DNA from: a virus
Taxonomy: Duplodnaviria; Heunggongvirae; Uroviricota; Caudoviricetes
Virus record (IMG/VR): IMGVR_UViG_2609459769_000006
DNA: 15,351 nt
Direction: 5' to 3' (one strand)
Positions 1 through 10,014 of this stretch are shown piece after piece. Both the position numbers and the translations under genes were made by a program. A model generated the notes under the pieces. The model was not told the origin of the DNA. It saw only the letters and a list, made by a program, of their open reading frames with translations, and made no database searches. Every line of letters begins with the position of its first letter. Positions within the stretch are counted from its first letter, which is position 1.

Positions 1-879
1 TGAGGCGCTCTGTCCCGCTGCTGTTTCAGAAGACTTAGCGTTCGTCTCGGACGTTTTTGCCGCCTTCGCGGAATTTCCTGCCGCCGTTGCCGAGGAAGCT
101 GCACTACTGGCACTTGATGATGCATTCGTTTCTGAAGATTTCGCTGCCTCTTTTGAGGCCGCCGCACCCCGTGCCGAGGTGGCAGCTTCTGACGCCTTCG
201 TGGTCGCTGTGGATGCAGAAGTGGCTGCCGATTTTTGTGATGCTGCGGCATTCGTTTCTGACGTTTTCGCGGCACTGGCGCTGGTAGCTGCCGCGCTTTT
301 TGATGACTCTGCAGCAGCAGCACTTTTTGCTGCTTCACGGGCCTTTGTCGATGCCGTTCCTGCGCTGGAAGACGCTGACTGAGCCGACGACGCGGCCTGT
401 CCGGCTGACGTGCTGGCGGCACGTGATGAGGCTGCAGCATCGGTTGCATGAGTTGCCGCCTCGCTGGCTGATGCACTGGCATCGCTGGCTGATTTTTTCG
501 CGGCTGCCGTATTCTGTGCAACCGCGGAGGCGTTACGTGACACCTCTTCTACCATCTGCTCAAAGCGGCGCAGTGCCTCCGGTCGGACATCATCCTCCGT
601 CATGGCACCGAGAAAATCATTCAGCGTACCTGGTCTGGAACCTTCATAGACGGTAATGGTCCCGGCATGTGAAGGCGGAAAACCTTCAACCAGCAGGGTG
701 ACGCTGTACTGACCATGCTCAACATCCATGCTGTAACGTCCGGCTTCATCCGGATTTTCAGAGGCCACCGTGTTCACCACCACCGTGCTGCTGGTTCGTC
801 TGGCCTTCAGCACAATGGTGCAGTTCTGTACTGGTTTTCCTGTGCCATCTTTAAGCACGCCAGAAATTTTTACTGTCAT
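1..879 (-). CDS. stf: Side tail fiber protein Stf, N-terminal 293 codons (partial; C-terminal part lies beyond window start)
   Basis: Minus-strand frame from ATG at 879-877 translates MTVKISGVLKDGTGKPVQNCTIVLKARR... followed by Ala/Ser/Thr-rich repeats (AAKTSETNA...), which I recognise as the lambda Stf N-terminus; frame checked by hand at both ends and is open to position 1. Not in the ORF track because no stop lies in the window. Confidence 0.85.
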   Translation of the reverse strand, partial: MTVKISGVLKDGTGKPVQNCTIVLKARRTSSTVVVNTVASENPDEAGRYSMDVEHGQYSVTLLVEGFPPSHAGTITVYEGSRPGTLNDFLGAMTEDDVRPEALRRFEQMVEEVSRNASAVAQNTAAAKKSASDASASASEAATHATDAAASSRAASTSAGQAASSAQSASSSAGTASTKAREAAKSAAAAESSKSAAATSASAAKTSETNAAASQKSAATSASTATTKASEAATSARGAAASKEAAKSSETNASSSASSAASSATAAGNSAKAAKTSETNAKSSETAAGQSAS

Positions 880-893
880 ACTTTTCCACCAAT

Positions 894-924
894 AAAAAAA
901 GCCCGCAGCAGTGACGCCACGGGC
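894..924 (-). terminator. Putative intrinsic terminator between lom and stf
   Basis: Plus strand A-run 894-900 followed by GCCCG...CGGGC inverted repeat (901-905 / 920-924); on the minus strand this reads as a hairpin followed by a T-run, downstream of lom. Long loop, so only moderate. Confidence 0.4.
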
Positions 925-1030
925 TTCAGGACAGTGTAACTTTACGTTTCCTCAAACGCAGTTCACCCCATAAGGTGGATGAACCTGCGTATCATAACAA
1001 TATTTACAGAAGATAAATCGGCGTCTGTTG

Positions 1031-1630
1031 TCAGAAACGGTATCCGATACCAACAATAAATGCATCCGTTCGCCAGTCGCCACTACCGGAACCTTCATAA
1101 GCAAGGTCAATGGTCACGGATTCGGTCGGGTTAAACTGCACGCCAGCCCCCCACGCCAGAGACGTGTTGCTGTGGCGACCGTCATCACTTCCGGTCAGCA
1201 CATCGTGCGTTTTCCCCTTGTTGTCAGTTACGCGGAGATAATCCCCGGAGAAAGTCGACACACGGCTGTAAGCCACACCCGCCATCGCATACGCGCTGAA
1301 CCATTCATTCACGCGTACAGACGGCCCCGCCATCACGCTGAACCAGCGGTTACGCACGGAATCTTCATGCCAGCGGGTATCGCTGTAGCGCGTTTTTTGC
1401 TCATCCTCAGCATTGGCATAACTGAAGGACGTAATCAGCCCCAGCGCGTCCGTAAACTCATAACGGTATTTCACGTTAATCCCGTTCAGATCATCACTAC
1501 CGGGAACGTTCGTCGAGGCATGGAGATACCCCGCGCTCAGCGTGGACTGATGTTCTGCTGCACTCGCTGGCGTAGCAGCGGCGACCTGCCAGACTACTGC
1601 GGACAAAATAACAGCACATAATTTACGCAT
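1031..1630 (-). CDS. lom: Lom outer-membrane protein (Ail/Lom family beta-barrel)
   Basis: 199-aa ORF MRKLCAVILSAV...HQSTLSAGYLHASTNVPGSDDLNGINVKYRYEFTD...AYEGSGSGDWRTDAFIVGIGYRF: signal peptide plus near-identity to my recollection of lambda Lom, ending in aromatic residue typical of OM beta-barrels; GAGAGG SD upstream of ATG 1630. Confidence 0.9.
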   Translation of the reverse strand: MRKLCAVILSAVVWQVAAATPASAAEHQSTLSAGYLHASTNVPGSDDLNGINVKYRYEFTDALGLITSFSYANAEDEQKTRYSDTRWHEDSVRNRWFSVMAGPSVRVNEWFSAYAMAGVAYSRVSTFSGDYLRVTDNKGKTHDVLTGSDDGRHSNTSLAWGAGVQFNPTESVTIDLAYEGSGSGDWRTDAFIVGIGYRF

Positions 1631-1654
1631 AATTACCTCTCGCTTTTCTGCAAT

Positions 1655-1678
1655 AAAAAAGGCGCCATTTCTGGCGCC
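1655..1678 (-). terminator. Putative intrinsic terminator between J fragment and lom
   Basis: Plus strand A-run 1655-1660 then GGCGCCA-tttc-TGGCGCC perfect 7-bp inverted repeat (1661-1678); on minus strand a hairpin followed by T-run, located after the J stop (1698) and just before the lom RBS. Confidence 0.5.
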
Positions 1679-1697
1679 CGTATCTGGGTTATAAAAT

Positions 1698-3068
1698 TCA
1701 GCTAATCGTGATGCCTGCAGTGGCTTTCTTCATCACCACAACCAGCAAATCGCTGATACTTGCTGTGGGATACCAGTTATTTACCAGCCATGCTGACACC
1801 GAAAACTCCAGTGTCATGTGACCGTGACCGGCAGGCATATCAATAACACCACTGTAAATCAGCGTATTATCCAGCGCGGTACGGTTATAAATTTCAGCAC
1901 CGTTTTTCCGCACTATCAGACGGCATGAGGAGTAAATATCAGTATGCTCTTTCTCATGTTTAGCGCCGCTGAATGCCACCGCCGGAATAACAATCTGCCG
2001 GTCAAACGGCTGATCGTCATAAACCCTGACGGTAATGGTTCCTGATGGCCACCGCTCCGGTGCACGGGAGTCCCGGGGGAAAGCTTTGCCCACTGTTTTA
2101 ACGAGATCGCCTTCAATCTGGTTCGCGGACAATTTTCCCAGAACCCGACAGTTCTCGTTAATCGTGACGTTGTTGAGCGTCCCGGAGTTCGCATTCACGT
2201 TACCGCTGATATCGGCATTTTTCGCCGTCAGCCGCCCGTCCGGTGTCAGGGAAAATGCCGGAGGATTACCGCCGCTGGTAATGGTGGGAGCCGTCAGATA
2301 TTTCAGGAACACTTCATTCATAAATATCTGATCGCCCTGACCAACAAACATCGGCTTTGTGTTGCCATTCGCAGGATTAATCATCGCAATCCTGTCTGCC
2401 GCCAGCAGCACCTGACTCTGCATTCCTGCTGGCGTATTCTCAATACCGGCACCGATACCCGCAATATAAAGGCGTCCGTCCTGCATCTGCTGCAGTTTCA
2501 CGGCCCACATGCTGTTCAGGTTATTATTTGTATCAACCTGAACTTTCTGTATCTGCTGGATTGCCGCACTCTGATTTTCCAGTTTTTTATTGACGGTCTG
2601 CGTGATTTCATTGCTGACATTCGTAATGGACGTCCTGATTTCAGCCAGGTCCGGCGCAAGCTGACCGTTATCAATCTGCGTCCACAGCTCCTGGGCCAGA
2701 TGTGTTTTCCCGATTTCTCCTTTGAAAAAATCCAGGTAACCTTCCGCATCATCGCTCGCCCGACCGACAGCCTCCACGAATGCCGATTTGCCAACAGTAT
2801 TCACACTGCGGATATAAAAATAATAATCATGGCCCGGTTTGATATTGATACTGGCAGCTATCCAGTACAGCGCCGAGCCAAGATAGCGGGCTGCGGTTTC
2901 AACCTGCCTGATATCCGCAATCCGCTTTTCCGAGAACCAGAACTCAAACTGTATCCGTGGTGGGGTTGTCGAACTCATCCGCCACCGCAGGACCGTTATC
3001 TGACTAACCTGTATTTCAAAATCAGAGAGGACCGTCGTAAGGCTGCACGGGGAGAGTAATTCAATGAC
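1698..3068 (-). pseudogene. J: Host-specificity/central tail fiber protein J, C-terminal fragment (5'-truncated remnant, about 456 codons of open frame)
   Basis: Translation contains [24 protein letters not shown]...[50 protein letters not shown]...[45 protein letters not shown], recognised as the C-terminal region of lambda J. Frame is open upstream only to a stop at 3069-3071, so roughly 670 N-terminal codons of a full-length J are absent; first ATG is at 2978. Confidence 0.75.
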
Positions 3069-3408
3069 TCAAAACTATGAACTGATTGTGAAAGGGATCC
3101 GCAATTTTGAGAATAAAGTTACGGTAACTTTAGCGTTACGGGACAAAAAACGCTTTGACGGTGAAATTTTTGACCTGGACATCTCGCTGGACCGTGTTGA
3201 AGGTGCCGCGCTGGAGTTTTATGAGGCAGCAGCCAGAAGGAGCATCAGACAGGTCTTCCTGGATGTTGCTGCCGGGTTATGTGAAGGGGATGAGCAGTCG
3301 CCGGAAAAGCGCCCCGTAATTTTAGAGGCGCAGGATGTGTTGATAACCTACAGAGGAAAACTACCGGGAATAATTACGGGTTCTCTGAAGAGTCCGCCGA
3401 AATGGTAA
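3064..3408 (+). CDS. Hypothetical protein (114 aa), sits at the J truncation junction
   Basis: ORF with GGGGAGAG SD-like sequence 7 nt upstream of ATG 3064; soluble-looking protein; no family recognised. Confidence 0.45.
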
Positions 3409-3646
3409 TTTTACCAGCATATTTTTCATCCAGTAATACAGCAAGCCGCCTGAAAGAGTCTTGTTGTTCCTGAGACCATTTGGGATTGCATGATTCAAAC
3501 TGGATTGATGCCAGCGTTGATTGCATCTGTTCCCTTGGAATTGAGAATGCCAGATATGAGAAGGCGACGGTAAGGGTATTCACGTCTTCCCGAAGCCTGG
3601 AAATGCTGTCGAGCAACTCCTGTAGAGAAATGGTGTTATTGTCCAT
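3374..3646 (-). CDS. Hypothetical protein (90 aa)
   Basis: ORF with GAGGAT SD 6 nt upstream of ATG 3646; 3' end overlaps the 3' end of the convergent 114-aa ORF by 35 nt; no family recognised. Confidence 0.4.
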   Translation of the reverse strand: MDNNTISLQELLDSISRLREDVNTLTVAFSYLAFSIPREQMQSTLASIQFESCNPKWSQEQQDSFRRLAVLLDEKYAGKITISADSSENP

Positions 3647-3751
3647 AAATAATCCTCATGATTGTATTGACCTGTTAGCAGCCTGAGGCAACAGGCTGGA
3701 ACTGATAAACATATCCAGGGCTCAGAAACCGATAAATCCTGATAAATATCC

Positions 3752-4315
3752 ATGAACGCAAAAATCAGATACGGCCTGTCGGCTGCCGTTCTGGCGCTGA
3801 TTGCCGCTGGTGCGCCTGCGCCTGACATTCTCGACCAGTTTCTGGATGAAAAGGAAGGTAACCACACCACGGCATACCGTGATGGCGCGGGTATCTGGAC
3901 CATCTGCCGCGGTGCCATCCTGGTGGATGGCAAACCTGTCGTTCCGGGCATGAAGTTGTCGAAGGAAAAATGCGACCGGGTTAACGCCATTGAGCGTGAT
4001 AAGGCGCTGGCATGGGTGGAGAAAAACATCAGAGTGCCATTGAGTGAACCCCAGAAACGGGTGATCACCGGGATTGCGTCAACGCCTTCTCCGGATCGGG
4101 ATGGTGACATCCTGGAGCCGGAGGGCGCGGAGTTTGGCAGTGCGATCCCGTTTCTCTGGCAGCATGACCATTCCCGCCCGGTGGGGCAGTGTACGGTACG
4201 CCGGGTCAGCGAAGGGCTGGAAATCACGGCAACACTGGTGAAGCCCGTACCGGATATGCCGTCGCAACTGGCTGCCCGGCTGCCGGGCCAGCCACTCCAT
4301 TCAGTTTCGGAGTAA
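3752..4315 (+). pseudogene. Chimeric remnant: SAR-endolysin (GH24 phage lysozyme) N-terminus fused in frame to a prohead protease (HK97-type) N-terminal fragment
   Basis: Residues 1-105 (nt 3752-4066): signal-anchor-like LSAAVLALIAAGA followed by lysozyme catalytic E-8aa-D-5aa-T pattern (EGNHTTAYRDGAGIWT). Residues from about 106 (nt 4067-4315): IASTPSPDRDGDILEPEGAEF...PFLWQHDHSRPVGQ, resembling the N-terminus of caudoviral prohead proteases. Too short for either full enzyme; no holin upstream; no clear SD. Confidence 0.55.
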
Positions 4316-5309
4316 CCGTGGCACTGCCGGCGGTGAACACCAGCTCCAGCGTCTGCCAGTCGTTACTGTAATTCCCGAACTCGCCCAACTTTGTGTTTCC
4401 TGCTTTCCTGTGATGCATCAGATTCAGTTTGCCGTCTGTGGTCTGGGTGAAGAACGACATCAGGAACGGGTTACCAGTCCCGGTCATCGTCACGACGTCA
4501 GGTAACGCTACATCGGTATACAGATAAATTCCCAGACCGAACTGGTTGTTGGTCAGTGCGCCTGACAGTCGAAACTTACAGCTCAGTCTGCCACCCCGTG
4601 TCAGCAGGGAGACTGCGTCATCCACCGGATGCATCAGGGACCAGGTTTTATTGCTCTGCTTGGTAACCTTAAACACACCATCTTCCAGCGCAACACTGCC
4701 GCCGGTGATGGTCCAGCCCTGCGCAGCAGCCTCTCCGGCTGTCGGCAGCAGGGAGACTGTACGAACGGATGTGTCACCATCAGACGGCCCCGATGGCGTG
4801 TCGCCGCCGGGCGAGGGTTTAATCTCCGGTGCGGTACCGCTGATGAAGGCGCTGGTTCGACCAACTGCGTTCAGAATAGCGGTTGCCAGGCGATCCGAAA
4901 TAATGCCCCTGCGCGCCCATGAACTGAAATGTGTCGGACGATTTGACGATACCCAATTACCATTACTACGGGATTGCGCGCCGTAATAACCTGCATCAGC
5001 AATATCCGGGTCTTCTGCCGGTAAGTTGGTGGGCGTGTTGTTGCCGTTACCGTCGGTCATGAACGGCACAAAGAAAACGTTGTCGCTCTCCCTGTTTTTG
5101 TACGCGCCGTAGACGGAGTCATACTGTGTGCCGTATGTGTTTTTCCAGTAATACGTCGTGTCGCCACAAATCCACGGTACAACTGCAGCACTGCCGCCAT
5201 GGCACTGCGCCGCCAGCCCGGCAAGGTCAGCACGGAACTGCTGTACCATTGCAAGAAATGCTGCTGGCTGCTGGGCGTACCAGAACAGATCGAAGTAATA
5301 CCCGCACAT
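4224..5309 (-). CDS. Hypothetical two-domain protein (361 aa): Cys/aromatic-rich N-domain, Pro/Ser/Gly linker, C-terminal Gly/Thr-rich probable beta-rich domain
   Basis: Longest and most protein-like ORF in this GC-rich stretch; start ATG overlaps the stop of the upstream 92-aa ORF in a TAATG arrangement (5305-5309), suggesting translational coupling; linker PEIKPSPGGDTPSGPSDGDTS. No family recognised. Confidence 0.6.
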   Translation of the reverse strand: MCGYYFDLFWYAQQPAAFLAMVQQFRADLAGLAAQCHGGSAAVVPWICGDTTYYWKNTYGTQYDSVYGAYKNRESDNVFFVPFMTDGNGNNTPTNLPAEDPDIADAGYYGAQSRSNGNWVSSNRPTHFSSWARRGIISDRLATAILNAVGRTSAFISGTAPEIKPSPGGDTPSGPSDGDTSVRTVSLLPTAGEAAAQGWTITGGSVALEDGVFKVTKQSNKTWSLMHPVDDAVSLLTRGGRLSCKFRLSGALTNNQFGLGIYLYTDVALPDVVTMTGTGNPFLMSFFTQTTDGKLNLMHHRKAGNTKLGEFGNYSNDWQTLELVFTAGSATVTPKLNGVAGPAAGQPVATAYPVRASPVLP

Positions 5310-5587
5310 TACCTCCAGATCCGTTGCTGGAATGTGCGGGACGGACGCGCTGGCCGTTCTGAGTAAGGGAGCCTGACGGAGATTATCCAGTGACGGTAGT
5401 CGAGGCTAAGGGCTTTTTTAACCTCGCATCCGCGCCCGCGGTAACACTGAATGAGCCATTCAGCCTGTTCTTCGGTGCAGGGGTCGTGCTGATACCAGTC
5501 AGATTTGAATGCATGAGAACGCCGCCCGTGCCTGCTGGCAGGGGCGGCAGAGTTATCCGAATTGTAAAATTTGGTATCGTGCGCCAT
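5309..5587 (-). CDS. Hypothetical protein (92 aa), first gene of a coupled pair
   Basis: ATG at 5587; stop overlaps start of the 361-aa ORF (TAATG). Contains Cys-containing segment DPCTEEQAEWLIQCYRGRGC. Weak SD. Confidence 0.5.
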   Translation of the reverse strand: MAHDTKFYNSDNSAAPASRHGRRSHAFKSDWYQHDPCTEEQAEWLIQCYRGRGCEVKKALSLDYRHWIISVRLPYSERPARPSRTFQQRIWR

Positions 5588-5854
5588 CTGTTTTCTCTGC
5601 TGGCGCAGCAGGTGCCAGTTGTTCAGGCTGACGTATGAAGTATAAATAAACTGGCTCCAGTGTAAAGCCCCACCTTAATGGAATAAAAACCAAACAACAG
5701 ATTGCTGGGATAAAAATACAACGCTTATTATTAAAAGCGGTTAGATAAATTAAATTTTAATGTTATGCAAATCTGCCAGATTAGCATAATATTTCATTTG
5801 AAAACCGCTGAAATAACAATCTTATCGGGATTAATCATATTAAGGTGAGTAAAT

Positions 5855-5941
5855 ATGGAAAACAACAAATCTGCACATTACGCTCCTTTTTTATCTGTAA
5901 TACTTTTTGTATTTTGTTGTGTATGGGCGGTATTTTTATAA
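5855..5941 (+). CDS. Candidate small hydrophobic peptide (28 aa, MENNKSAHYAPFLSVILFVFCCVWAVFL)
   Basis: Not in supplied ORF track (below size cutoff). AAGGTGAG SD at 5842-5849, 5 nt before ATG 5855; polar N-terminus then 17 hydrophobic residues; stop TAA 5939-5941 followed 20 nt later by a hairpin terminator; lies in AT-rich intergenic DNA convergent with the protease gene. Codons verified by hand. Confidence 0.3.
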   Translation: MENNKSAHYAPFLSVILFVFCCVWAVFL

Positions 5942-5961
5942 AACACACCCACAAATAAATC

Positions 5962-5981
5962 AAACCCGCTACAGCGGGTTT
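5962..5981. terminator. Putative bidirectional intrinsic terminator
   Basis: Perfect 8-bp inverted repeat AAACCCGC-taca-GCGGGTTT; T-rich sequence follows on both strands (plus: gatttatat; minus: gatttatttgtgggtgtgtttt). Positioned between the protease stop (5996-5998) and the small plus-strand ORF stop (5939-5941). Confidence 0.5.
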
Positions 5982-5995
5982 GATTTATATAGTTG

Positions 5996-8260
5996 TTATA
6001 CGGAAACTGGCACACGAGCAGGCAATGGATAGTGAGCCCAGTTATTAGCATTTAAAGCTCTTACGCCATCAGCATAAACTTGTGTGTTTCCATCTAATGA
6101 TTTTAAAGTTACTACAATAGTTACAGGTAAAGGCTCCATTAAGGCCGGTTCATTCGCTCTCAACGTTGTTTTAGCTTGAAGAGCCCAGTTACCCGAAGTA
6201 ATTCCTTTATTAAATGCCTTGCGATGAATTTTTACTGGTGACCACTTTCCACCATGCTCAATTTGAGCTCTCTCATATCCAGATTGACCGTTTTCTCCTT
6301 CCATAGGTACTTTTCCTTTTATAGTATTATTCTCAATTAAGCCAAAACTTAGCTCTACGTTCGCGCGAACATATTCACTGCCGGCATTAGGGTTCAGTGG
6401 TGGTGCATATGCAGCAGTAATTACAATCTCACCTTTAAATTTTCCATTTTGAATAAGTGCCGATGGTATGGGATAGTTTTCCTTTCTCCACCTCACCCCA
6501 GGAACCAAGAATGTTTGGAAAATCAGAGTAAACCTATCATCACTATCATATAAGGTCTCAATAACCTCATTAGGAATTCCCGCTCCCAAATAGCGTCTTT
6601 CACTTGGCGAGTAATCAGGAGAAGATAATTGAGCGGAATGAATTAATAATGCTTTAATCAATGATGGTGAAACATTAAAGTCTGAATTAGTGGCTATTCT
6701 CTGCCATGTATGCGCAGCTAAACTTGCCACAATTGGAGCAGCAAAACTAGTACCAAAATTAGAGCAAAGCCTATTATCTGGCCCTACGACCTTTAAACTG
6801 CTTGCTCCTACATTCCAAGGTCTATGAACCCCACCGCCAGCATGGATTATATCTGGCTTTGGAGTAAATACAGGCCCAGGGCCACGACGAGTATATGGTG
6901 TCGGTGTTCCAATTTCACTTAAAGCATCATTAGCTTCCATATGAGAAACTGAACCAACTGTTAGTGCTCGGACTGACTCTCCAGGAGAGGAAATTAAATC
7001 AGCACCTCCAAGCGGATCAGGATTTGGCCATGTACGTATAGGTTCATCTACATAATTACCTGCAGCAACTACAAACAAAATACCAAATTTATCGCTGAGC
7101 CGATCTAACTCCATCGCAAAATCACTAAACATCTGCTCATTACATGGTCCGCCTCCCAAAGATAAATTCCAGACTTTTATATCTGGTCTTTTATTTACAG
7201 CATCTGCTAGCCTCAGAATTAAATCTGATATATAAGATCCATTTTCATCTAAAGCACAAACATCATGGATTTTAGATTTTGTATCAGGAATCCATGGATG
7301 ATTGTCATTTAAAAAATGAGCGCCTGATATCAATGAAGACACCATAGTCCCATGTTCATAACTCGTATCAGGAGGAATTACGTATGTTTCCCTACTCACT
7401 ACCCAAGGAGTAATTGTTGCCGCGATGGGGCTTACCCCAGTGTCAAATACAGCAACAATGGGTAATTCTTCTGATGGTACGGGAAAGCTATTTGTTTCAA
7501 TGCCAACAGAATCACTTACACTAACCGGGAATGCTGAATATTTTGGTTCTGGAATTAACGTTCTTATACCCGGGTAATCAATGAGAATGTCTAATATATA
7601 TCTATCATTTGGGGATAAATCCATTATCCTTAATAAGGGAAGACCACATTTTGGTCTAATCTCATCATATTTAACTCCGTGTTGTTCTAATATAGAAATA
7701 ACGTTTTCATAGTTGTTGTAAGTTGCATCTTCACCTGTGTACTCAAATAGTCGTACAAGGATGTTTGATGATTCAAACAAACCATCAGTGCCTCCTGGAA
7801 CCTTCCTATTCTCATCCCAAGGTTCAATGCGCTCAATCGCGCTTAGATTAGCCAAAATCGCTTTAATATTCCGATGTAAAATGACTGACTCTAATACGTC
7901 AAAACAGCCGGCATGAGCAGCAACCAACATTTCATCTATTTTGGCATGACCGGCATTTTGCAATCCAGCCTCTTGAGCAATTTTGTTCGGCCTATGCGTT
8001 TTGGCTATTCCCTGGTCTCTTAATTTGAAAACCAAAGTACCCAAGCTTCCAGGGTACTCTGAAAGTTTGGATTCTAAATAATGTTTACTGGTTGTTAAAT
8101 TTCTTACTAGCCCTTGTCTATATTCGGCTGTTACATCAACCAATACCTTTGCCCCACCGCCAGCGTTTACTATTGCACCCAAGTCACTACTGGAAAAAGG
8201 GATTCTTAACATTGGGTTTGTAACTTTTGCGTTACTAAACTGTGTACCCCTTCTGCTCAT
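5996..8260 (-). CDS. Large subtilisin-like serine protease (peptidase S8 fold) with uncharacterised N- and C-terminal extensions, 754 aa
   Basis: Canonical subtilase order and motifs: Asp in VAVFDTGV (D273), His in YEHGTMVSS (H303), oxyanion Asn in VVAAGN (N401), Ser in GTSFAAP (S505). About 255 residues before and about 195 after the catalytic domain with no recognised motifs. ATG 8260 preceded by AGGAG; start overlaps ATPase stop by 26 nt. AT-rich codon usage. Confidence 0.85.
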   Translation of the reverse strand: MSRRGTQFSNAKVTNPMLRIPFSSSDLGAIVNAGGGAKVLVDVTAEYRQGLVRNLTTSKHYLESKLSEYPGSLGTLVFKLRDQGIAKTHRPNKIAQEAGLQNAGHAKIDEMLVAAHAGCFDVLESVILHRNIKAILANLSAIERIEPWDENRKVPGGTDGLFESSNILVRLFEYTGEDATYNNYENVISILEQHGVKYDEIRPKCGLPLLRIMDLSPNDRYILDILIDYPGIRTLIPEPKYSAFPVSVSDSVGIETNSFPVPSEELPIVAVFDTGVSPIAATITPWVVSRETYVIPPDTSYEHGTMVSSLISGAHFLNDNHPWIPDTKSKIHDVCALDENGSYISDLILRLADAVNKRPDIKVWNLSLGGGPCNEQMFSDFAMELDRLSDKFGILFVVAAGNYVDEPIRTWPNPDPLGGADLISSPGESVRALTVGSVSHMEANDALSEIGTPTPYTRRGPGPVFTPKPDIIHAGGGVHRPWNVGASSLKVVGPDNRLCSNFGTSFAAPIVASLAAHTWQRIATNSDFNVSPSLIKALLIHSAQLSSPDYSPSERRYLGAGIPNEVIETLYDSDDRFTLIFQTFLVPGVRWRKENYPIPSALIQNGKFKGEIVITAAYAPPLNPNAGSEYVRANVELSFGLIENNTIKGKVPMEGENGQSGYERAQIEHGGKWSPVKIHRKAFNKGITSGNWALQAKTTLRANEPALMEPLPVTIVVTLKSLDGNTQVYADGVRALNANNWAHYPLPARVPVSV

Positions 8261-9389
8261 ATGCTCCTGACTCCTTCAGAATGTTTGAAATTACTCTTGA
8301 TGTAAGTTTGTACAAATTAGCAAGAACTCTGATAGAAAATAATTTTTTATCTTTAGAACGTAACCAACGAATTTCATCTTCGTAAGTGCTTAAATTTACA
8401 CCTTCCATAAGCGATTGCGCAAGATACAAACGCCTATACAATTTATGGTGATTTATCACACTTGCACCTTCAATAACTGCATCCCTACGTGCATCCAAGC
8501 TCACCTGTTCAATTATTGCTCCGGATAATCCCTCCGATTTTCTTGATAAATCACTTAAATCTAGATCGCTACATATCATATTCTTTAAACGATTTTTCCA
8601 AATTAACTCTCTCTGATGTATGTCAGGCAGAGGCATTGGAATTCTGAAGCTAAATCGCCTCCAGATTGCAGGATCCAGAAGTTGCTCATGGTTAGTTGAG
8701 GCAATAATTACCGTATCCTCTGATGCCGCATCCATATTCTGCAATAGTGAAATGACAACTCGCTGAAGCTCACCTATATCTCTCTCATTACCTCTTGCTC
8801 CAGCTAAAGCATCAAATTCGTCTAAAAAAAGCACTGATGGCCTCTGCATTACATAATCGAAAACCTGTCTAAGATTTTTGCTGGTTTGTCCCAATAAACT
8901 ACTAATCAAAGTATCGCAACGCACTGTAAGAAGTGGAAAATCTAAGCGGGTAGCGATGTACTTAGATAACATAGTCTTACCTGTTCCTGGCTTTCCATAC
9001 ACGAGCATACGACTCGGCAATGCTGCATCAGCTTTAACAAACTCATCATAACGTTGAACATTAGTGATAAACTCTTCAACACGGGTACTGATTGCTGCAG
9101 GCAGAAAAATCTCTGAACTGTCTAATTTAGGATAACTGACATCAACAGTGTTGAGTCGACTATCAATATCTACCGGTAATGAGCCCAGAGATATCCCACC
9201 TCCAGCCCTTTGAGCTCCTGCCAACGCCTGGGGAGCTCTAAGCAACCTTTCTCTTATCATTCTGGCTTGCTTGACCTCCCCTTTTTGTTCGAGCTTATCT
9301 GCCAGCAACCCAGCATAATTACTAGCCATCGAAGCATTTGCCTTTGTTGCACCTTCAATGATTTTTAACACTTCTGATAAATAATCCAT
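8235..9389 (-). CDS. AAA+ ATPase (classic AAA clade), 384 aa
   Basis: Walker A GKPGTGKT (res 132-139), Walker B VLFLDEFD (186-193), sensor-1 STN (231-233), second region of homology with arginine pair PAIWRRFSF (240-248). GGGAG SD 7 nt upstream of ATG 9389. 3' end overlaps protease start (operon). Confidence 0.85.
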   Translation of the reverse strand: MDYLSEVLKIIEGATKANASMASNYAGLLADKLEQKGEVKQARMIRERLLRAPQALAGAQRAGGGISLGSLPVDIDSRLNTVDVSYPKLDSSEIFLPAAISTRVEEFITNVQRYDEFVKADAALPSRMLVYGKPGTGKTMLSKYIATRLDFPLLTVRCDTLISSLLGQTSKNLRQVFDYVMQRPSVLFLDEFDALAGARGNERDIGELQRVVISLLQNMDAASEDTVIIASTNHEQLLDPAIWRRFSFRIPMPLPDIHQRELIWKNRLKNMICSDLDLSDLSRKSEGLSGAIIEQVSLDARRDAVIEGASVINHHKLYRRLYLAQSLMEGVNLSTYEDEIRWLRSKDKKLFSIRVLANLYKLTSRVISNILKESGAYEQKGYTV

Positions 9390-9582
9390 TCAACACTCCC
9401 ACAACAAAAAGCCACAGCAATCAAAAAATGAGCACACAGAATCAAAATACTCTCTAATCGTAACGCATTTTGAGATTTTTGATACGTTTTTTTGGGATTA
9501 TGTAACGCCAAATGGTCATTTTGTGTCAGAAAAATAAATCTTAGTACCGAGAATATGTAGCTTCCATCCTTCATCGTTCTAT
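9390..9582 (-). promoter_or_regulatory. AT-rich upstream region of the ATPase-protease operon (probable promoter region, not mapped)
   Basis: 193-nt AT-rich non-coding spacer between the stop of the 143-aa gene and the ATPase start; contains TTGATT/TTGATTG-like -35 candidates on the minus strand. No precise -10/-35 assignment claimed. Confidence 0.3.
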
Positions 9583-10014
9583 TCATCCCTGATCTCCAAG
9601 CCTCTCTCGAAAACCATTCTGATAAAACGCCAGCACACGCTGCATAACTTCGCTCTTCCGGCACTCGCGACAGATTATGTTCAGACGCCTGTCGTAGCGG
9701 CGTATTTCTCCGTCTGGTAATGACCAGATAAGGTCCGGATCAACCACAGATGGTTTCTTCACCTTTGCCCTGGATAGTTTTTTGCGGGCATTTTGCCAGT
9801 CCTTACGAGCCTGTTCAGACGGGAATAACCCGTAACCAGAGTTGTATACATCGCCACTGGCAACCAGCTCTCTGGCGAGAACGCTCATCAGATATCTTGT
9901 CGCACCTGTCTTGGCTTCCAGTTGCCGTAACGTCTCGCGCCCACTCCGGCGTACTAGCTCAACAACCTGCCCTTTAATTTTTTCCCGCTCTTCTTGTGTA
10001 AATACTTTTGCCAT
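9583..10014 (-). CDS. Hypothetical protein (143 aa from ATG 10014; ORF track used an upstream TTG), possible winged-helix N-terminus
   Basis: GGAGG SD 7 nt upstream of ATG at 10014-10012; begins MAKVFTQEEREKIKGQVVELVRRSG...; basic C-terminal half with single CxxC. Immediately follows the stop of the upstream gene (10030-10032). Confidence 0.5.
   Translation of the reverse strand: MAKVFTQEEREKIKGQVVELVRRSGRETLRQLEAKTGATRYLMSVLARELVASGDVYNSGYGLFPSEQARKDWQNARKKLSRAKVKKPSVVDPDLIWSLPDGEIRRYDRRLNIICRECRKSEVMQRVLAFYQNGFRERLGDQG

What the first reader, a model, noticed from the sequence alone, without database searches (positions are those of the whole stretch)
5996..8260. Protease carries about 255-residue N-terminal and about 195-residue C-terminal domains of unrecognised function
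The catalytic subtilase core spans roughly residues 265-520. The N-terminal region (nt about 7496-8260) and the C-terminal region (nt about 5999-6583) show no motifs I can assign. In defence-associated proteases such extensions usually act as sensor, regulatory or substrate-recruiting domains, so these are where system-specific biology would reside.
Basis: inference. Interest (0 to 1): 0.45.

Follow-up and report, generated by a model that had tools for sequence, protein, structure and literature searches.

The report
Known IetS defence protease, extensions resolved
The gene is the already-named IetS (IteS) protease of the prophage-borne IetAS anti-phage toxin-antitoxin pair; two of its three "unassigned" extension modules have standard subtilase accessory folds, and only the first ~160 residues remain a family-specific orphan.

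Summary
ORF 5996-8260 (-) encodes a 754-aa protein 100% identical to RefSeq E. coli "S8 family anti-phage peptidase IteS". It passes the NCBIfam equivalog cut-off and matches the PADLOC IetS model end to end. The overlapping upstream ORF 8235-9389 (-) is the AAA+ partner IetA. The pair sits as a low-GC insert in a lambdoid prophage.

Both extensions are real, conserved and confidently folded (AF2 pLDDT 87.8, pTM 0.90), and neither has a Pfam or PDB sequence match.

The fold searches break them down further:
- Residues ~161-242 have the beta-alpha-beta-beta-alpha-beta order of a subtilase I9-type prodomain and appear docked where a classical propeptide sits.
- Residues ~1-160 (basic tail plus module "N1") match nothing and occur only in IetS-type proteins.

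My working model is inferred, not shown: IetS is a cytoplasmic zymogen-like protease kept latent by its tethered prodomain and by ATP-dependent action of IetA. The system is already known, but its mechanism was still described as unknown in 2026.

The parts
5996..8260 (-). ietS (iteS): the 754-aa S8 protease, which is the toxin/effector of the IetAS system.
   Evidence: PADLOC PDLC02197, E 3e-300, covering residues 12-753. NCBIfam equivalog NF042956, 1041 bits against a cut-off of 900. 100% identical cluster named IteS. RefSeq WP_032183377.1.
8219..8260 (-). Residues 1-14: flexible N-terminal tail that is usually basic, ahead of the conserved NPF..IPF...DL motif.
   Evidence: pLDDT below 50 for residues 1-8. 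Across 111 homologues the tail is 9-27 aa long and has net charge of +2 or more in 79%.
7781..8218 (-). Residues 15-160: IetS-specific module N1. It has two short strands, a long helix (45-68), then strand-helix-strand-strand-helix-strand (74-147). It carries the invariant A86-K87-x-x-R90-P91 (H89 nearly invariant), G104 and N138/S140/W148 positions. Its fold is unassigned.
   Evidence: Secondary structure and pLDDT of about 90. Invariant columns. A profile search of 1.84 billion representatives finds 305 clusters; in the 150 best the match is N-terminal and the full-length members are 722-787 aa. Only IetS models hit it in PADLOC, and only phrog_3964 in PHROGs.
7535..7780 (-). Residues 161-242: module N2 with I9-propeptide-like topology (E167-171, H177-193, E198-201, E209-212, H217-228, E232-237). 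It ends in the conserved motif PG-x-R-x-[IL]-x-[PA]-E-P-x-[YF].
7463..7534 (-). Residues 243-266: hypervariable linker rich in Ser, Ala, Pro and Thr, joining the prodomain-like module to the catalytic domain.
   Evidence: Entropy 3.02 bits and 19% mean identity. Block-mean pLDDT of 63 and 70 for residues 241-260.
6545..7462 (-). Residues 267-572: subtilase catalytic domain. Codons: D273 at nt 7442-7444, H303 at 7352-7354, N402 at 7055-7057, S505 at 6746-6748.
5999..6544 (-). [quoted passage not shown] It is the most conserved region of the protein, with invariant W591-R592-K593, E629-Y630-V631-R632-A633 and H679-R680.
8235..9389 (-). ietA (iteA): 384-aa classic-clade AAA+ ATPase, reported as the antitoxin. 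Its stop overlaps the ietS start by 26 nt.
   Evidence: PADLOC PDLC02196, E 9e-143. NCBIfam NF042959, 526.6 bits against a cut-off of 510. Best PDB sequence relatives are p97/Cdc48 D2, E 1e-53. ORF coordinates.
5955..5988 (-). Perfect 15-bp hairpin 7 nt after the ietS stop codon, followed by a T-rich run. It is the likely operon terminator.
   Evidence: Terminator-like scan and direct reading of the minus strand.

Best explanation
SHOWN. The ORF is IetS (NCBI: IteS), the subtilase of the two-gene IetAS anti-phage / toxin-antitoxin system. It is encoded with its AAA+ partner IetA as a low-GC insert in the replication-to-nin region of a lambdoid E. coli prophage. In a confident AF2 model the protein is one compact body with this order:
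- a basic flexible tail (residues 1-14)
- an IetS-only module N1 (15-160)
- an I9-propeptide-like module N2 (161-242)
- a hypervariable 24-aa linker (243-266)
- an intact S8 catalytic domain (267-572)
- a beta-jelly-roll (573-754)

INFERRED.
1. IetS is a cytoplasmic, zymogen-like protease. N2 sits on the catalytic domain like a classical propeptide. Its conserved tail (E-P-x-Y/F, residues 238-241) is positioned to occupy the substrate cleft, so the enzyme is made latent.
2. The long flexible linker lets this inhibition operate without, or before, cleavage.
3. IetA is a hexamer-type AAA+ whose activity is needed to tolerate IetS. It keeps IetS latent in an ATP-dependent way, most plausibly by engaging the tail/N1 or the highly conserved C-domain.
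4. A phage-made trigger disturbs this control. The prodomain is then cleaved or displaced, and the freed protease cuts cellular or phage proteins, aborting infection.
5. The jelly-roll mainly stabilises the catalytic domain, as in Tk-SP and CspB. Its extreme conservation and invariant charged motifs suggest it also carries a binding surface, for IetA or for substrate.
For: Identity:
- PADLOC IetS and IetA full-length matches.
- NCBIfam equivalogs above cut-off.
- 100% identical RefSeq protein named IteS.
- The same pair is in phage vB_EcoS-683R6, between the replication genes and Q.
- Prophage context of the window and a GC dip to 0.38-0.41.

Folded extensions: AF2 with a 120-sequence alignment gives pLDDT 87.8 and pTM 0.90.

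Prodomain-like N2:
- beta-alpha-beta-beta-alpha-beta order.
- Best Foldseek hits are uncleaved or prodomain-bearing subtilases: 3afg at E 1.4e-23, then PCSK9, 3whi, 2z2z and 1r6v.
- An aromatic residue at 241 follows the conserved PEP motif.

Cytoplasmic location: no hydrophobic N-terminus.

Active enzyme: invariant D-H-N-S.

Literature:
- IetS is the toxin and IetA the antitoxin. Protease activity is required for defence. An ietA mutant could not be cloned. The anti-phage mechanism 'remains unknown' (PMC13069673).
- IetAS acts by abortive infection, and expression of a single phage gene is toxic only in its presence (bioRxiv 10.1101/2022.08.27.505566).
- CspB is a precedent for a subtilase whose retained prodomain blocks the active site until a signal arrives (PMC3567191).
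Against: - The prodomain and jelly-roll assignments rest on a predicted model and on whole-chain fold searches. The tools gave no residue-level alignment, so which residues superpose is deduced from aligned lengths.
- No sequence-level support for I9 homology. Pfam gave no PF05922 hit, and an hhalign extension into the subtilisin E propeptide was low-confidence.
- I could not inspect coordinates. That the 238-241 tail lies in the cleft is therefore inference.
- Nothing here shows where IetA binds.
- IetA's N-terminal region is well conserved between E. coli and pRi1724 (39% identity over residues 4-307). IetS's N-terminal 260 residues are not detectable by BLASTP between the same two systems. 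This argues against a simple co-evolving N1-IetA interface.
- Autoprocessing, the trigger and the substrates are all untested.
Confidence: 0.5

Rival explanations
1. One reading: one or both extensions are direct sensors that bind a phage component and thereby switch the protease on.
For: - The N-terminal region is confined to IetS-type proteins.
- It diverges much faster than the core between subfamilies. Module N2 in particular also diverges faster among close homologues.
- A Bacillus IetAS is activated by expression of one phage protein.
- N1 has no known fold match.
Against: - N2 and the C-domain have ordinary subtilase accessory folds in canonical positions.
- The C-domain is the most conserved part of the protein.
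- N1 is more conserved than N2 and is recognisable across four IetS subfamily models, so it is not a hypervariable specificity module.
- The trigger could equally act on IetA or act indirectly; the cited authors say they cannot tell.
Confidence: 0.2
2. The extensions are purely folding and stability accessories. N2 is an intramolecular chaperone that is cleaved off and degraded constitutively. The jelly-roll only stabilises the fold. All regulation is exerted by IetA on the mature enzyme, for example by sequestration or unfolding.
For: - This is the default behaviour of I9 prodomains and of the Tk-SP jelly-roll (PMC3599501; PMC3567191).
- N2 evolves fast, as propeptides typically do. That propeptides typically evolve fast is my own background knowledge.
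- IetA resembles unfoldase-type AAA+ proteins such as p97 D2, PAN and FtsH.
Against: - It does not explain the additional 160-residue N1 with invariant charged motifs.
- It does not explain the 24-aa flexible tether, which classical pro-subtilisins lack.
- It does not explain why the C-domain is more conserved than the catalytic core.
Confidence: 0.25
3. The domain picture is an artefact of structure prediction, or the gene is a decaying prophage remnant with no function.
For: - The window's prophage looks rearranged on its left side.
- A single-sequence AF2 run gave a meaningless model with pLDDT 32.
Against: - The ORF is intact, and its product is 100% identical to the representative of a cluster of 1093 member sequences.
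- 78 complete E. coli genomes carry at least 80% of the 4.2-kb ietAS stretch searched.
- The catalytic residues are invariant.
- Both curated equivalog cut-offs are passed.
- The alignment-based model has pTM 0.90.
Confidence: 0.02

Closest known systems
IetAS / Gao_Iet (NCBI: IteA-IteS) anti-phage system of E. coli and other Proteobacteria.
   Same: It is the same thing. The product is 100% identical to a RefSeq IteS protein. The HMM matches are full-length and above curated cut-offs. The IetA gene is upstream and overlaps. The location is a prophage.
   Different: Nothing at gene level. The literature read here does not describe the extension domains and calls the mechanism unknown (PMC13069673).
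Plasmid-stabilising IetAS toxin-antitoxin pair of Agrobacterium/Rhizobium Ti/Ri plasmids. The founding member is on pTiC58 (Yamamoto 2009, cited). The pRi1724 homologue was examined here.
   Same: - Same gene order, with the AAA ATPase directly upstream.
- Same protein sizes: 374 aa for the ATPase and 752 aa for the protease.
- A profile alignment is collinear over residues 72-743, including the AKSHRP-like motif and the whole C-domain.
- IetA is 39% identical.
   Different: - Only 28% identity in the core plus C-domain. The N-terminal 260 residues are undetectable by BLASTP.
- It is plasmid-borne and was described as a stability and incompatibility module rather than phage defence.
- The pTiC58 protein itself was not retrieved.
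Tk-SP of Thermococcus kodakarensis (ProN-Tk-SP, PDB 3AFG).
   Different: - It is an archaeal degradative protease that I take to be secreted (background knowledge), with a removable C-propeptide.
- It has no N1 module, no 24-aa tether and no AAA+ partner.
- About 20% identity.
- Its jelly-roll binds Ca2+ and is needed only for hyperstability.
CspB/CspC/CspA germination subtilases of Clostridia, and PCSK9.
   Different: - The Csp jelly-roll is an insertion, not a C-terminal domain.
- No AAA+ partner.
- A different biological setting.
- Whether IetS retains its prodomain is untested.
KP-43 (PDB 1WMD) and SubHal (PDB 5FAX) subtilases.
   Same: They are the only PDB sequence hits of IetS. They consist of a catalytic domain plus a C-terminal beta-domain, which superposes with the IetS model as one body: 363 of 434 residues at rmsd 3.1.
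   Different: I take them to be secreted alkaline proteases (background knowledge). Sequence similarity is limited to part of the core (query residues 413-543). The C-domains have no detectable sequence similarity.
ietHAS, a three-gene IetAS variant with an SNF2 helicase.
   Same: It shares the IetA and IetS components. Protease activity is required for defence, and an ietA mutant could not be cloned (PMC13069673).
   Different: There is no helicase gene next to the pair in this window; the neighbours are prophage replication and nin-region genes.

Membership tests
IetAS / Gao_Iet (IteS, NCBIfam NF042956; PADLOC IetS) | Full-length match to the curated IetS/IteS model above its cut-off. | tested here: met
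   NF042956 scores 1041.1 bits against a cut-off of 900, covering residues 15-752. PDLC02197 gives E 3.3e-300 over residues 12-753.
IetAS / Gao_Iet | Adjacent, co-oriented AAA+ ATPase IetA. | tested here: met
   ORF 8235-9389 (-) scores 526.6 bits on NF042959 against a cut-off of 510, and E 8.9e-143 on PDLC02196. It overlaps ietS by 26 nt.
IetAS / Gao_Iet | Catalytically competent S8 protease (Asp-His-Ser triad and oxyanion Asn). | tested here: met
   D273, H303, N402 and S505 are present and invariant in 120 homologues.
IetAS / Gao_Iet | Protects against phage, and IetS is toxic without IetA. | not testable with these tools
   Literature only, and for homologous systems (PMC13069673; bioRxiv 10.1101/2022.08.27.505566).
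Subtilase I9 propeptide (Pfam PF05922 Inhibitor_I9) | Sequence match to the I9 family. | tested here: not met
   No PF05922 hit for any of 26 N-terminal fragments at E up to 10. The PDB profile search gave nothing relevant. An hhalign extension into the subtilisin E propeptide was low-confidence.
Subtilase I9 propeptide | beta-alpha-beta-beta-alpha-beta fold docked on the catalytic domain immediately upstream of it. | tested here: met
   [not shown]
Subtilase I9 propeptide | Autocatalytic cleavage, and inhibition of the mature enzyme. | not testable with these tools
   The only hint is a conserved aromatic residue at position 241, after the PEP motif.
Classical secreted pro-subtilisins | N-terminal signal peptide. 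| tested here: not met
   The N-terminus is hydrophilic and basic. The maximum hydropathy over the first 55 residues is 1.41.
Tk-SP / KP-43-type C-terminal beta-jelly-roll (beta-barrel) domain | All-beta domain directly after the catalytic domain, packed on it in the same position. | tested here: met
   This holds on a predicted model only. Eight strands span residues 576-720. KP-43 aligns over 363 of 434 residues at rmsd 3.1, and 3afg over 408 of 507. Foldseek alignment columns are 494 and 575.
Tk-SP / KP-43-type C-terminal domain | Detectable sequence homology of the C-domain. | tested here: not met
   No Pfam or PDB sequence hit for the C-terminal profile.
Kexin/furin P-domain (Pfam PF01483) | Sequence or fold match to the P-domain. 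| tested here: not met
   [not shown]

The most novel reading that the evidence does not exclude
IetS would be an 'AAA+-policed zymogen'. In this reading the IetS-only N1 module and its basic flexible tail are the handle by which the IetA hexamer continually grips or remodels the protease, so that the tethered I9-like prodomain stays locked in the active site. A phage trigger would compete for this handle or block IetA. The prodomain would then be cut at or after Tyr241 and an indiscriminate cytoplasmic protease released. ATP-dependent maintenance of protease latency would be a regulatory logic not described, to my knowledge, for toxin-antitoxin or defence systems.
Probability: 0.25. Interest if true: 0.6.

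Novelty: already known. Interest (0 to 1): 0.3.

Why it matters
IetAS is a validated anti-phage and plasmid-stability system whose mechanism was still described as unknown in April 2026 (PMC13069673). The fold assignments give concrete handles for experiments:
- a prodomain-like module tethered by a hypervariable linker
- a conserved Tyr/Phe that could be an autoprocessing P1 residue
- an orphan 160-residue N-terminal module
- a jelly-roll that is more conserved than the catalytic core

These make the question "how does an AAA+ ATPase neutralise a subtilase toxin" directly testable with truncations and point mutants. As a genome-scan finding, however, it is a re-discovery of an annotated gene.

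Tried and rejected
1. Single-sequence AF2 of IetS gave pLDDT 32 and was unusable. It cost one of the two structure jobs, so per-domain models and per-domain fold searches could not be run.
2. Pfam scans and PDB profile searches of each extension found nothing. The only 'hit' was a de novo designed repeat protein, 7uek (E 0.0013, two 46-residue stretches), which I treat as spurious.
3. I tested whether N1 and N2 are a tandem duplication. hhalign gave probability below 1%, so there is no sequence support and only the order of secondary-structure elements is alike.
The core aligns, but the extension into the propeptide is low-confidence.
5. Kexin-type P-domain for the C-terminus: not supported.
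6. Signal peptide or sorting role: no hydrophobic N-terminus.
7. Modular sensor shared with other defence families: each extension fragment hits only IetS models in PADLOC, and only phrog_3964 in PHROGs.
8. Co-divergence of the IetS N-terminus with the IetA N-terminus: not seen, because the IetA N-terminal region is conserved where the IetS N-terminus is not.
9. A search for a structural or mechanistic IetAS paper found none. Yamamoto 2009 and Gao 2020 are not held in the library.
10. The BFVD search gave only viral subtilases and then non-significant jelly-roll capsid hits.
Full report
**What is there.** The window has a 754-codon ORF at 5996-8260 on the minus strand. Immediately upstream, and overlapping it by 26 nt, is a 384-codon ORF at 8235-9389. 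Pfam sees only a Peptidase_S8 domain at residues 268-544 of the first, and an AAA domain at residues 128-253 of the second.

**Identity.** PADLOC identifies the pair as IetS (PDLC02197, E 3.3e-300, residues 12-753 of 754) and IetA (PDLC02196, E 8.9e-143). NCBIfam's curated equivalog models are both passed: IteS_antiphage at 1041 bits against a cut-off of 900, and IteA_antiphage at 526.6 against 510. The protein is 100% identical to the representative of a cluster of 1093 member sequences named 'S8 family anti-phage peptidase IteS [Escherichia coli]', and to WP_032183377.1 in a complete E. coli chromosome. The gene is therefore already known and named.

**Context.**
- The pair lies in a GC trough of 0.38-0.41, against 0.50-0.58 on either side.
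- It is inside a lambdoid prophage. On one side are the replication genes: O-like initiator, DnaC-like loader, DUF1627 and a Ren-like/DUF977 protein. On the other are a DUF968 protein and the rest of the nin region.
- The same arrangement, with a 99.5% identical IetS, is in Escherichia phage vB_EcoS-683R6 between the replication genes and antiterminator Q.
- 78 of 5426 complete E. coli genomes carry at least 80% of the 4.2-kb stretch (window 5500-9700) that holds the pair.
- A perfect 15-bp hairpin followed by a T-rich run begins 7 nt after the ietS stop.

**Checking the observation.**
- The catalytic residues are D273, H303, N402 and S505. All are invariant in 120 homologues of 50-84% identity.
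The S8 fold continues through four helices after Ser505. By my reading, the motif RYLGAGIPNEVIETLY is the equivalent of the C-terminal helix of subtilisin, so the core ends at about residue 572.
- That leaves about 266 N-terminal and about 182 C-terminal residues.
- Profiles of either extension find no Pfam family and no solved structure by sequence, so 'no motif I can assign' is correct.
- The extensions are not filler. They contain 19 and 44 invariant positions respectively in 26-sequence alignments.
- Measured by column entropy, the C-terminal extension is the most conserved part of the whole protein:

| Region | Entropy (bits) |
|---|---|
| C-terminal domain | 1.07 |
| S8 core | 1.19 |
| N1 | 1.59 |
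| N-terminal tail | 1.80 |
| N2 | 2.12 |
| Linker 243-266 | 3.02 |

. The same ranking holds among the closest homologues.

**Structure.** A single-sequence AF2 run was useless, with pLDDT 32. With a 120-sequence alignment the model is confident, with mean pLDDT 87.8 and pTM 0.90. Only residues 1-8, 32-35, 657-659 and 752-754 fall below pLDDT 50. The secondary structure divides the N-terminal extension as follows:
- A flexible tail. In 111 homologues it is 9-27 residues long and net positive in 79%.
- Module N1. It has short strands at 18-20 and 27-29, a long helix at 45-68, then strand-helix-strand-strand-helix-strand over residues 74-147.
- Module N2 over residues 167-237, with a clean beta-alpha-beta-beta-alpha-beta order.
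- A lower-confidence, hypervariable linker rich in Ser, Ala, Pro and Thr, over residues 243-266.

The C-terminal extension has eight strands and three short helices.

**Fold searches.** Only whole-chain searches were possible.
- Foldseek against the PDB puts ProN-Tk-SP (3afg) first, at E 1.4e-23 with 575 alignment columns for a 507-residue target. Next come KP-43, SubHal, PCSK9, unautoprocessed pro-subtilisin E, fervidolysin and unautoprocessed Tk-subtilisin. These are the subtilases that carry an uncleaved N-propeptide, a C-terminal beta-domain, or both.
- The extra 60-80 residues fit a prodomain docked in the classical place. The extra roughly 100 residues fit a C-terminal beta-domain in the Tk-SP/KP-43 place.
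- The viral library gave a giant-virus 'Peptidase inhibitor I9' subtilase first, and later only non-significant jelly-roll capsid proteins.
- Caveat: these assignments come from a predicted model and from aligned lengths, not from residue-level alignments. Sequence methods do not support I9 homology.

**What remains unassigned.** The tail and N1 have no match.
- A profile of the N-terminal 262 residues, searched against 1.84 billion cluster representatives, finds only 305 clusters at E up to 0.001.
- Among the 150 best hits the match always lies at the N-terminus. The complete proteins form a tight 722-787 aa peak, and the remainder are shorter proteins collinear with IetS.
- In PADLOC, N1 is recognised by four IetS subfamily models, N2 only by its own subfamily model, and the C-domain by five IetS models. 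No other defence family is hit.
- In PHROGs the whole protein is phrog_3964 and IetA is phrog_3757, both labelled 'unknown function'.
- Rhizobial plasmid relatives keep the same sizes and gene order, for example pRi1724 with a 374-aa ATPase and a 752-aa protease. BLASTP aligns only residues 260-736 at 28% identity. A profile alignment is collinear over residues 72-743 and pairs AKSHRP with a similar motif.
- IetA is 39% identical over residues 4-307 between the same two systems.

The three-part architecture is therefore a hallmark of the whole IetS family rather than a shuffled sensor module.

**How it probably works.** From the literature read here:
- IetS is the toxin and IetA the antitoxin of a pair first found as a Ti-plasmid stability module.
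- Protease activity is needed for defence.
- An ietA mutant could not be cloned.
- The anti-phage mechanism 'remains unknown' (PMC13069673).
- A Bacillus IetAS acts by abortive infection, and expression of a single phage gene (SPbeta yosG) is toxic only in its presence. Whether that gene acts directly or indirectly is open (bioRxiv 10.1101/2022.08.27.505566).
- In E. coli the system is often prophage-borne (bioRxiv 10.1101/2022.08.21.504612).

Putting this together with the anatomy, I propose that IetS is a cytoplasmic zymogen-like subtilase:
1. It has no signal peptide.
2. N2 acts as a tethered inhibitory prodomain. Its conserved tail, P-E-P-x-Y/F (aromatic at 241 in 87 of 120 sequences), resembles the aromatic P1 at the end of the subtilisin propeptide (…H-x-Y; my recollection). 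It would occupy the cleft.
3. The 24-residue hypervariable linker, which classical pro-subtilisins lack, would allow this without strain.
4. IetA is a classic-clade AAA+ closest to p97 D2, PAN and FtsH. It keeps the enzyme latent at the cost of ATP.
5. A phage trigger breaks this control.

CspB is a precedent for a subtilase whose retained prodomain blocks a competent active site until a signal arrives. It also shows a jelly-roll domain needed for stability (PMC3567191). In Tk-SP the jelly-roll binds Ca2+ and adds stability only (PMC3599501). In IetS the jelly-roll is more conserved than the catalytic core and has invariant charged clusters (WRK 591-593, EYVRA 629-633, HR 679-680). I therefore suspect it also carries a binding surface, for IetA or for substrate.

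My confidence by layer:

| Claim | Confidence |
|---|---|
| Identity as IetS | about 0.97 |
| The two fold assignments | about 0.8 |
| The latency-control mechanism | about 0.35 |

**Rivals.**
- Direct phage sensing by the extensions (about 0.2). Family restriction and fast N-terminal divergence favour it. The ordinary folds of N2 and the C-domain, the extreme conservation of the C-domain, and the absence of these modules from other defence families count against it.
- Pure folding and stability accessories, with all control exerted by IetA on the mature enzyme (about 0.25). This is the default for subtilases, but it leaves N1, the tether and the C-domain conservation unexplained.
- Artefact or pseudogene (about 0.02).

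**Verdict.** Two of the three 'unrecognised' modules have standard subtilase accessory folds. Only residues 1-160 remain an orphan. The finding is of modest interest as a pointer to an unsolved mechanism, not as a discovery.

Noticed in passing
window 1-4280: The left part of the window is mosaic. A Lom outer-membrane gene (1031-1630, minus strand) and the C-terminal part of a tail-fibre gene (1698-2978, minus strand) lie within about 1.3 kb of the DUF968/nin-region genes. Otherwise identical prophages have RusA, antiterminator Q, a DNA methyltransferase and tRNA genes at that position. ARAGORN finds no tRNA in the window. This looks like a deletion or rearrangement that produced a defective prophage.
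   Followed up: partly
window 5500-9500: GC content drops to 0.38-0.41 over the ietAS genes and their downstream spacer, against 0.50-0.58 in the flanking prophage genes. This fits an acquired moron.
   Followed up: partly
window 5588-5950: A roughly 360-bp AT-rich non-coding stretch lies between the ietS terminator hairpin and the next gene (5309-5587, phrog_1212). It contains two promoter-like sites on the minus strand, at 5861-5834 and 5666-5639. These may restart prophage late-region transcription after the insert.
   Followed up: no
window 8235-8260: The ietA stop codon lies 26 nt inside ietS, suggesting translational coupling. In phage record ON470595 the same ietS is annotated with a start 16 codons further downstream, and ietA is labelled 'cell division protein FtsH'.
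   Followed up: partly
window 8235-9389 (IetA residues ~160-170): At the position of AAA+ pore loop 1, IetA reads S-S-L-L-G instead of the usual aromatic-hydrophobic-Gly. The same SSLLG is present in the pRi1724 homologue. This is my reading of the sequence against general AAA+ knowledge. It may mean that IetA remodels rather than fully threads its client.
   Followed up: no
[not shown]
   Followed up: no
L002 (Agrobacterium vitis plasmid NZ_CP118262.1), locus 1-5980: A distant IetAS-like pair (400-aa AAA ATPase and 833-aa S8 peptidase) sits beside a second AAA ATPase gene and a Shedu immune nuclease gene, which looks like a small defence island on a conjugative plasmid.
   Followed up: no
window 5999-8260 (-), by domain: The calculated pI alternates along the protein: tail+N1 9.3, N2 4.6, catalytic core 5.1, C-domain 9.5. 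The two basic modules are also the two with invariant Lys/Arg motifs.
   Followed up: no
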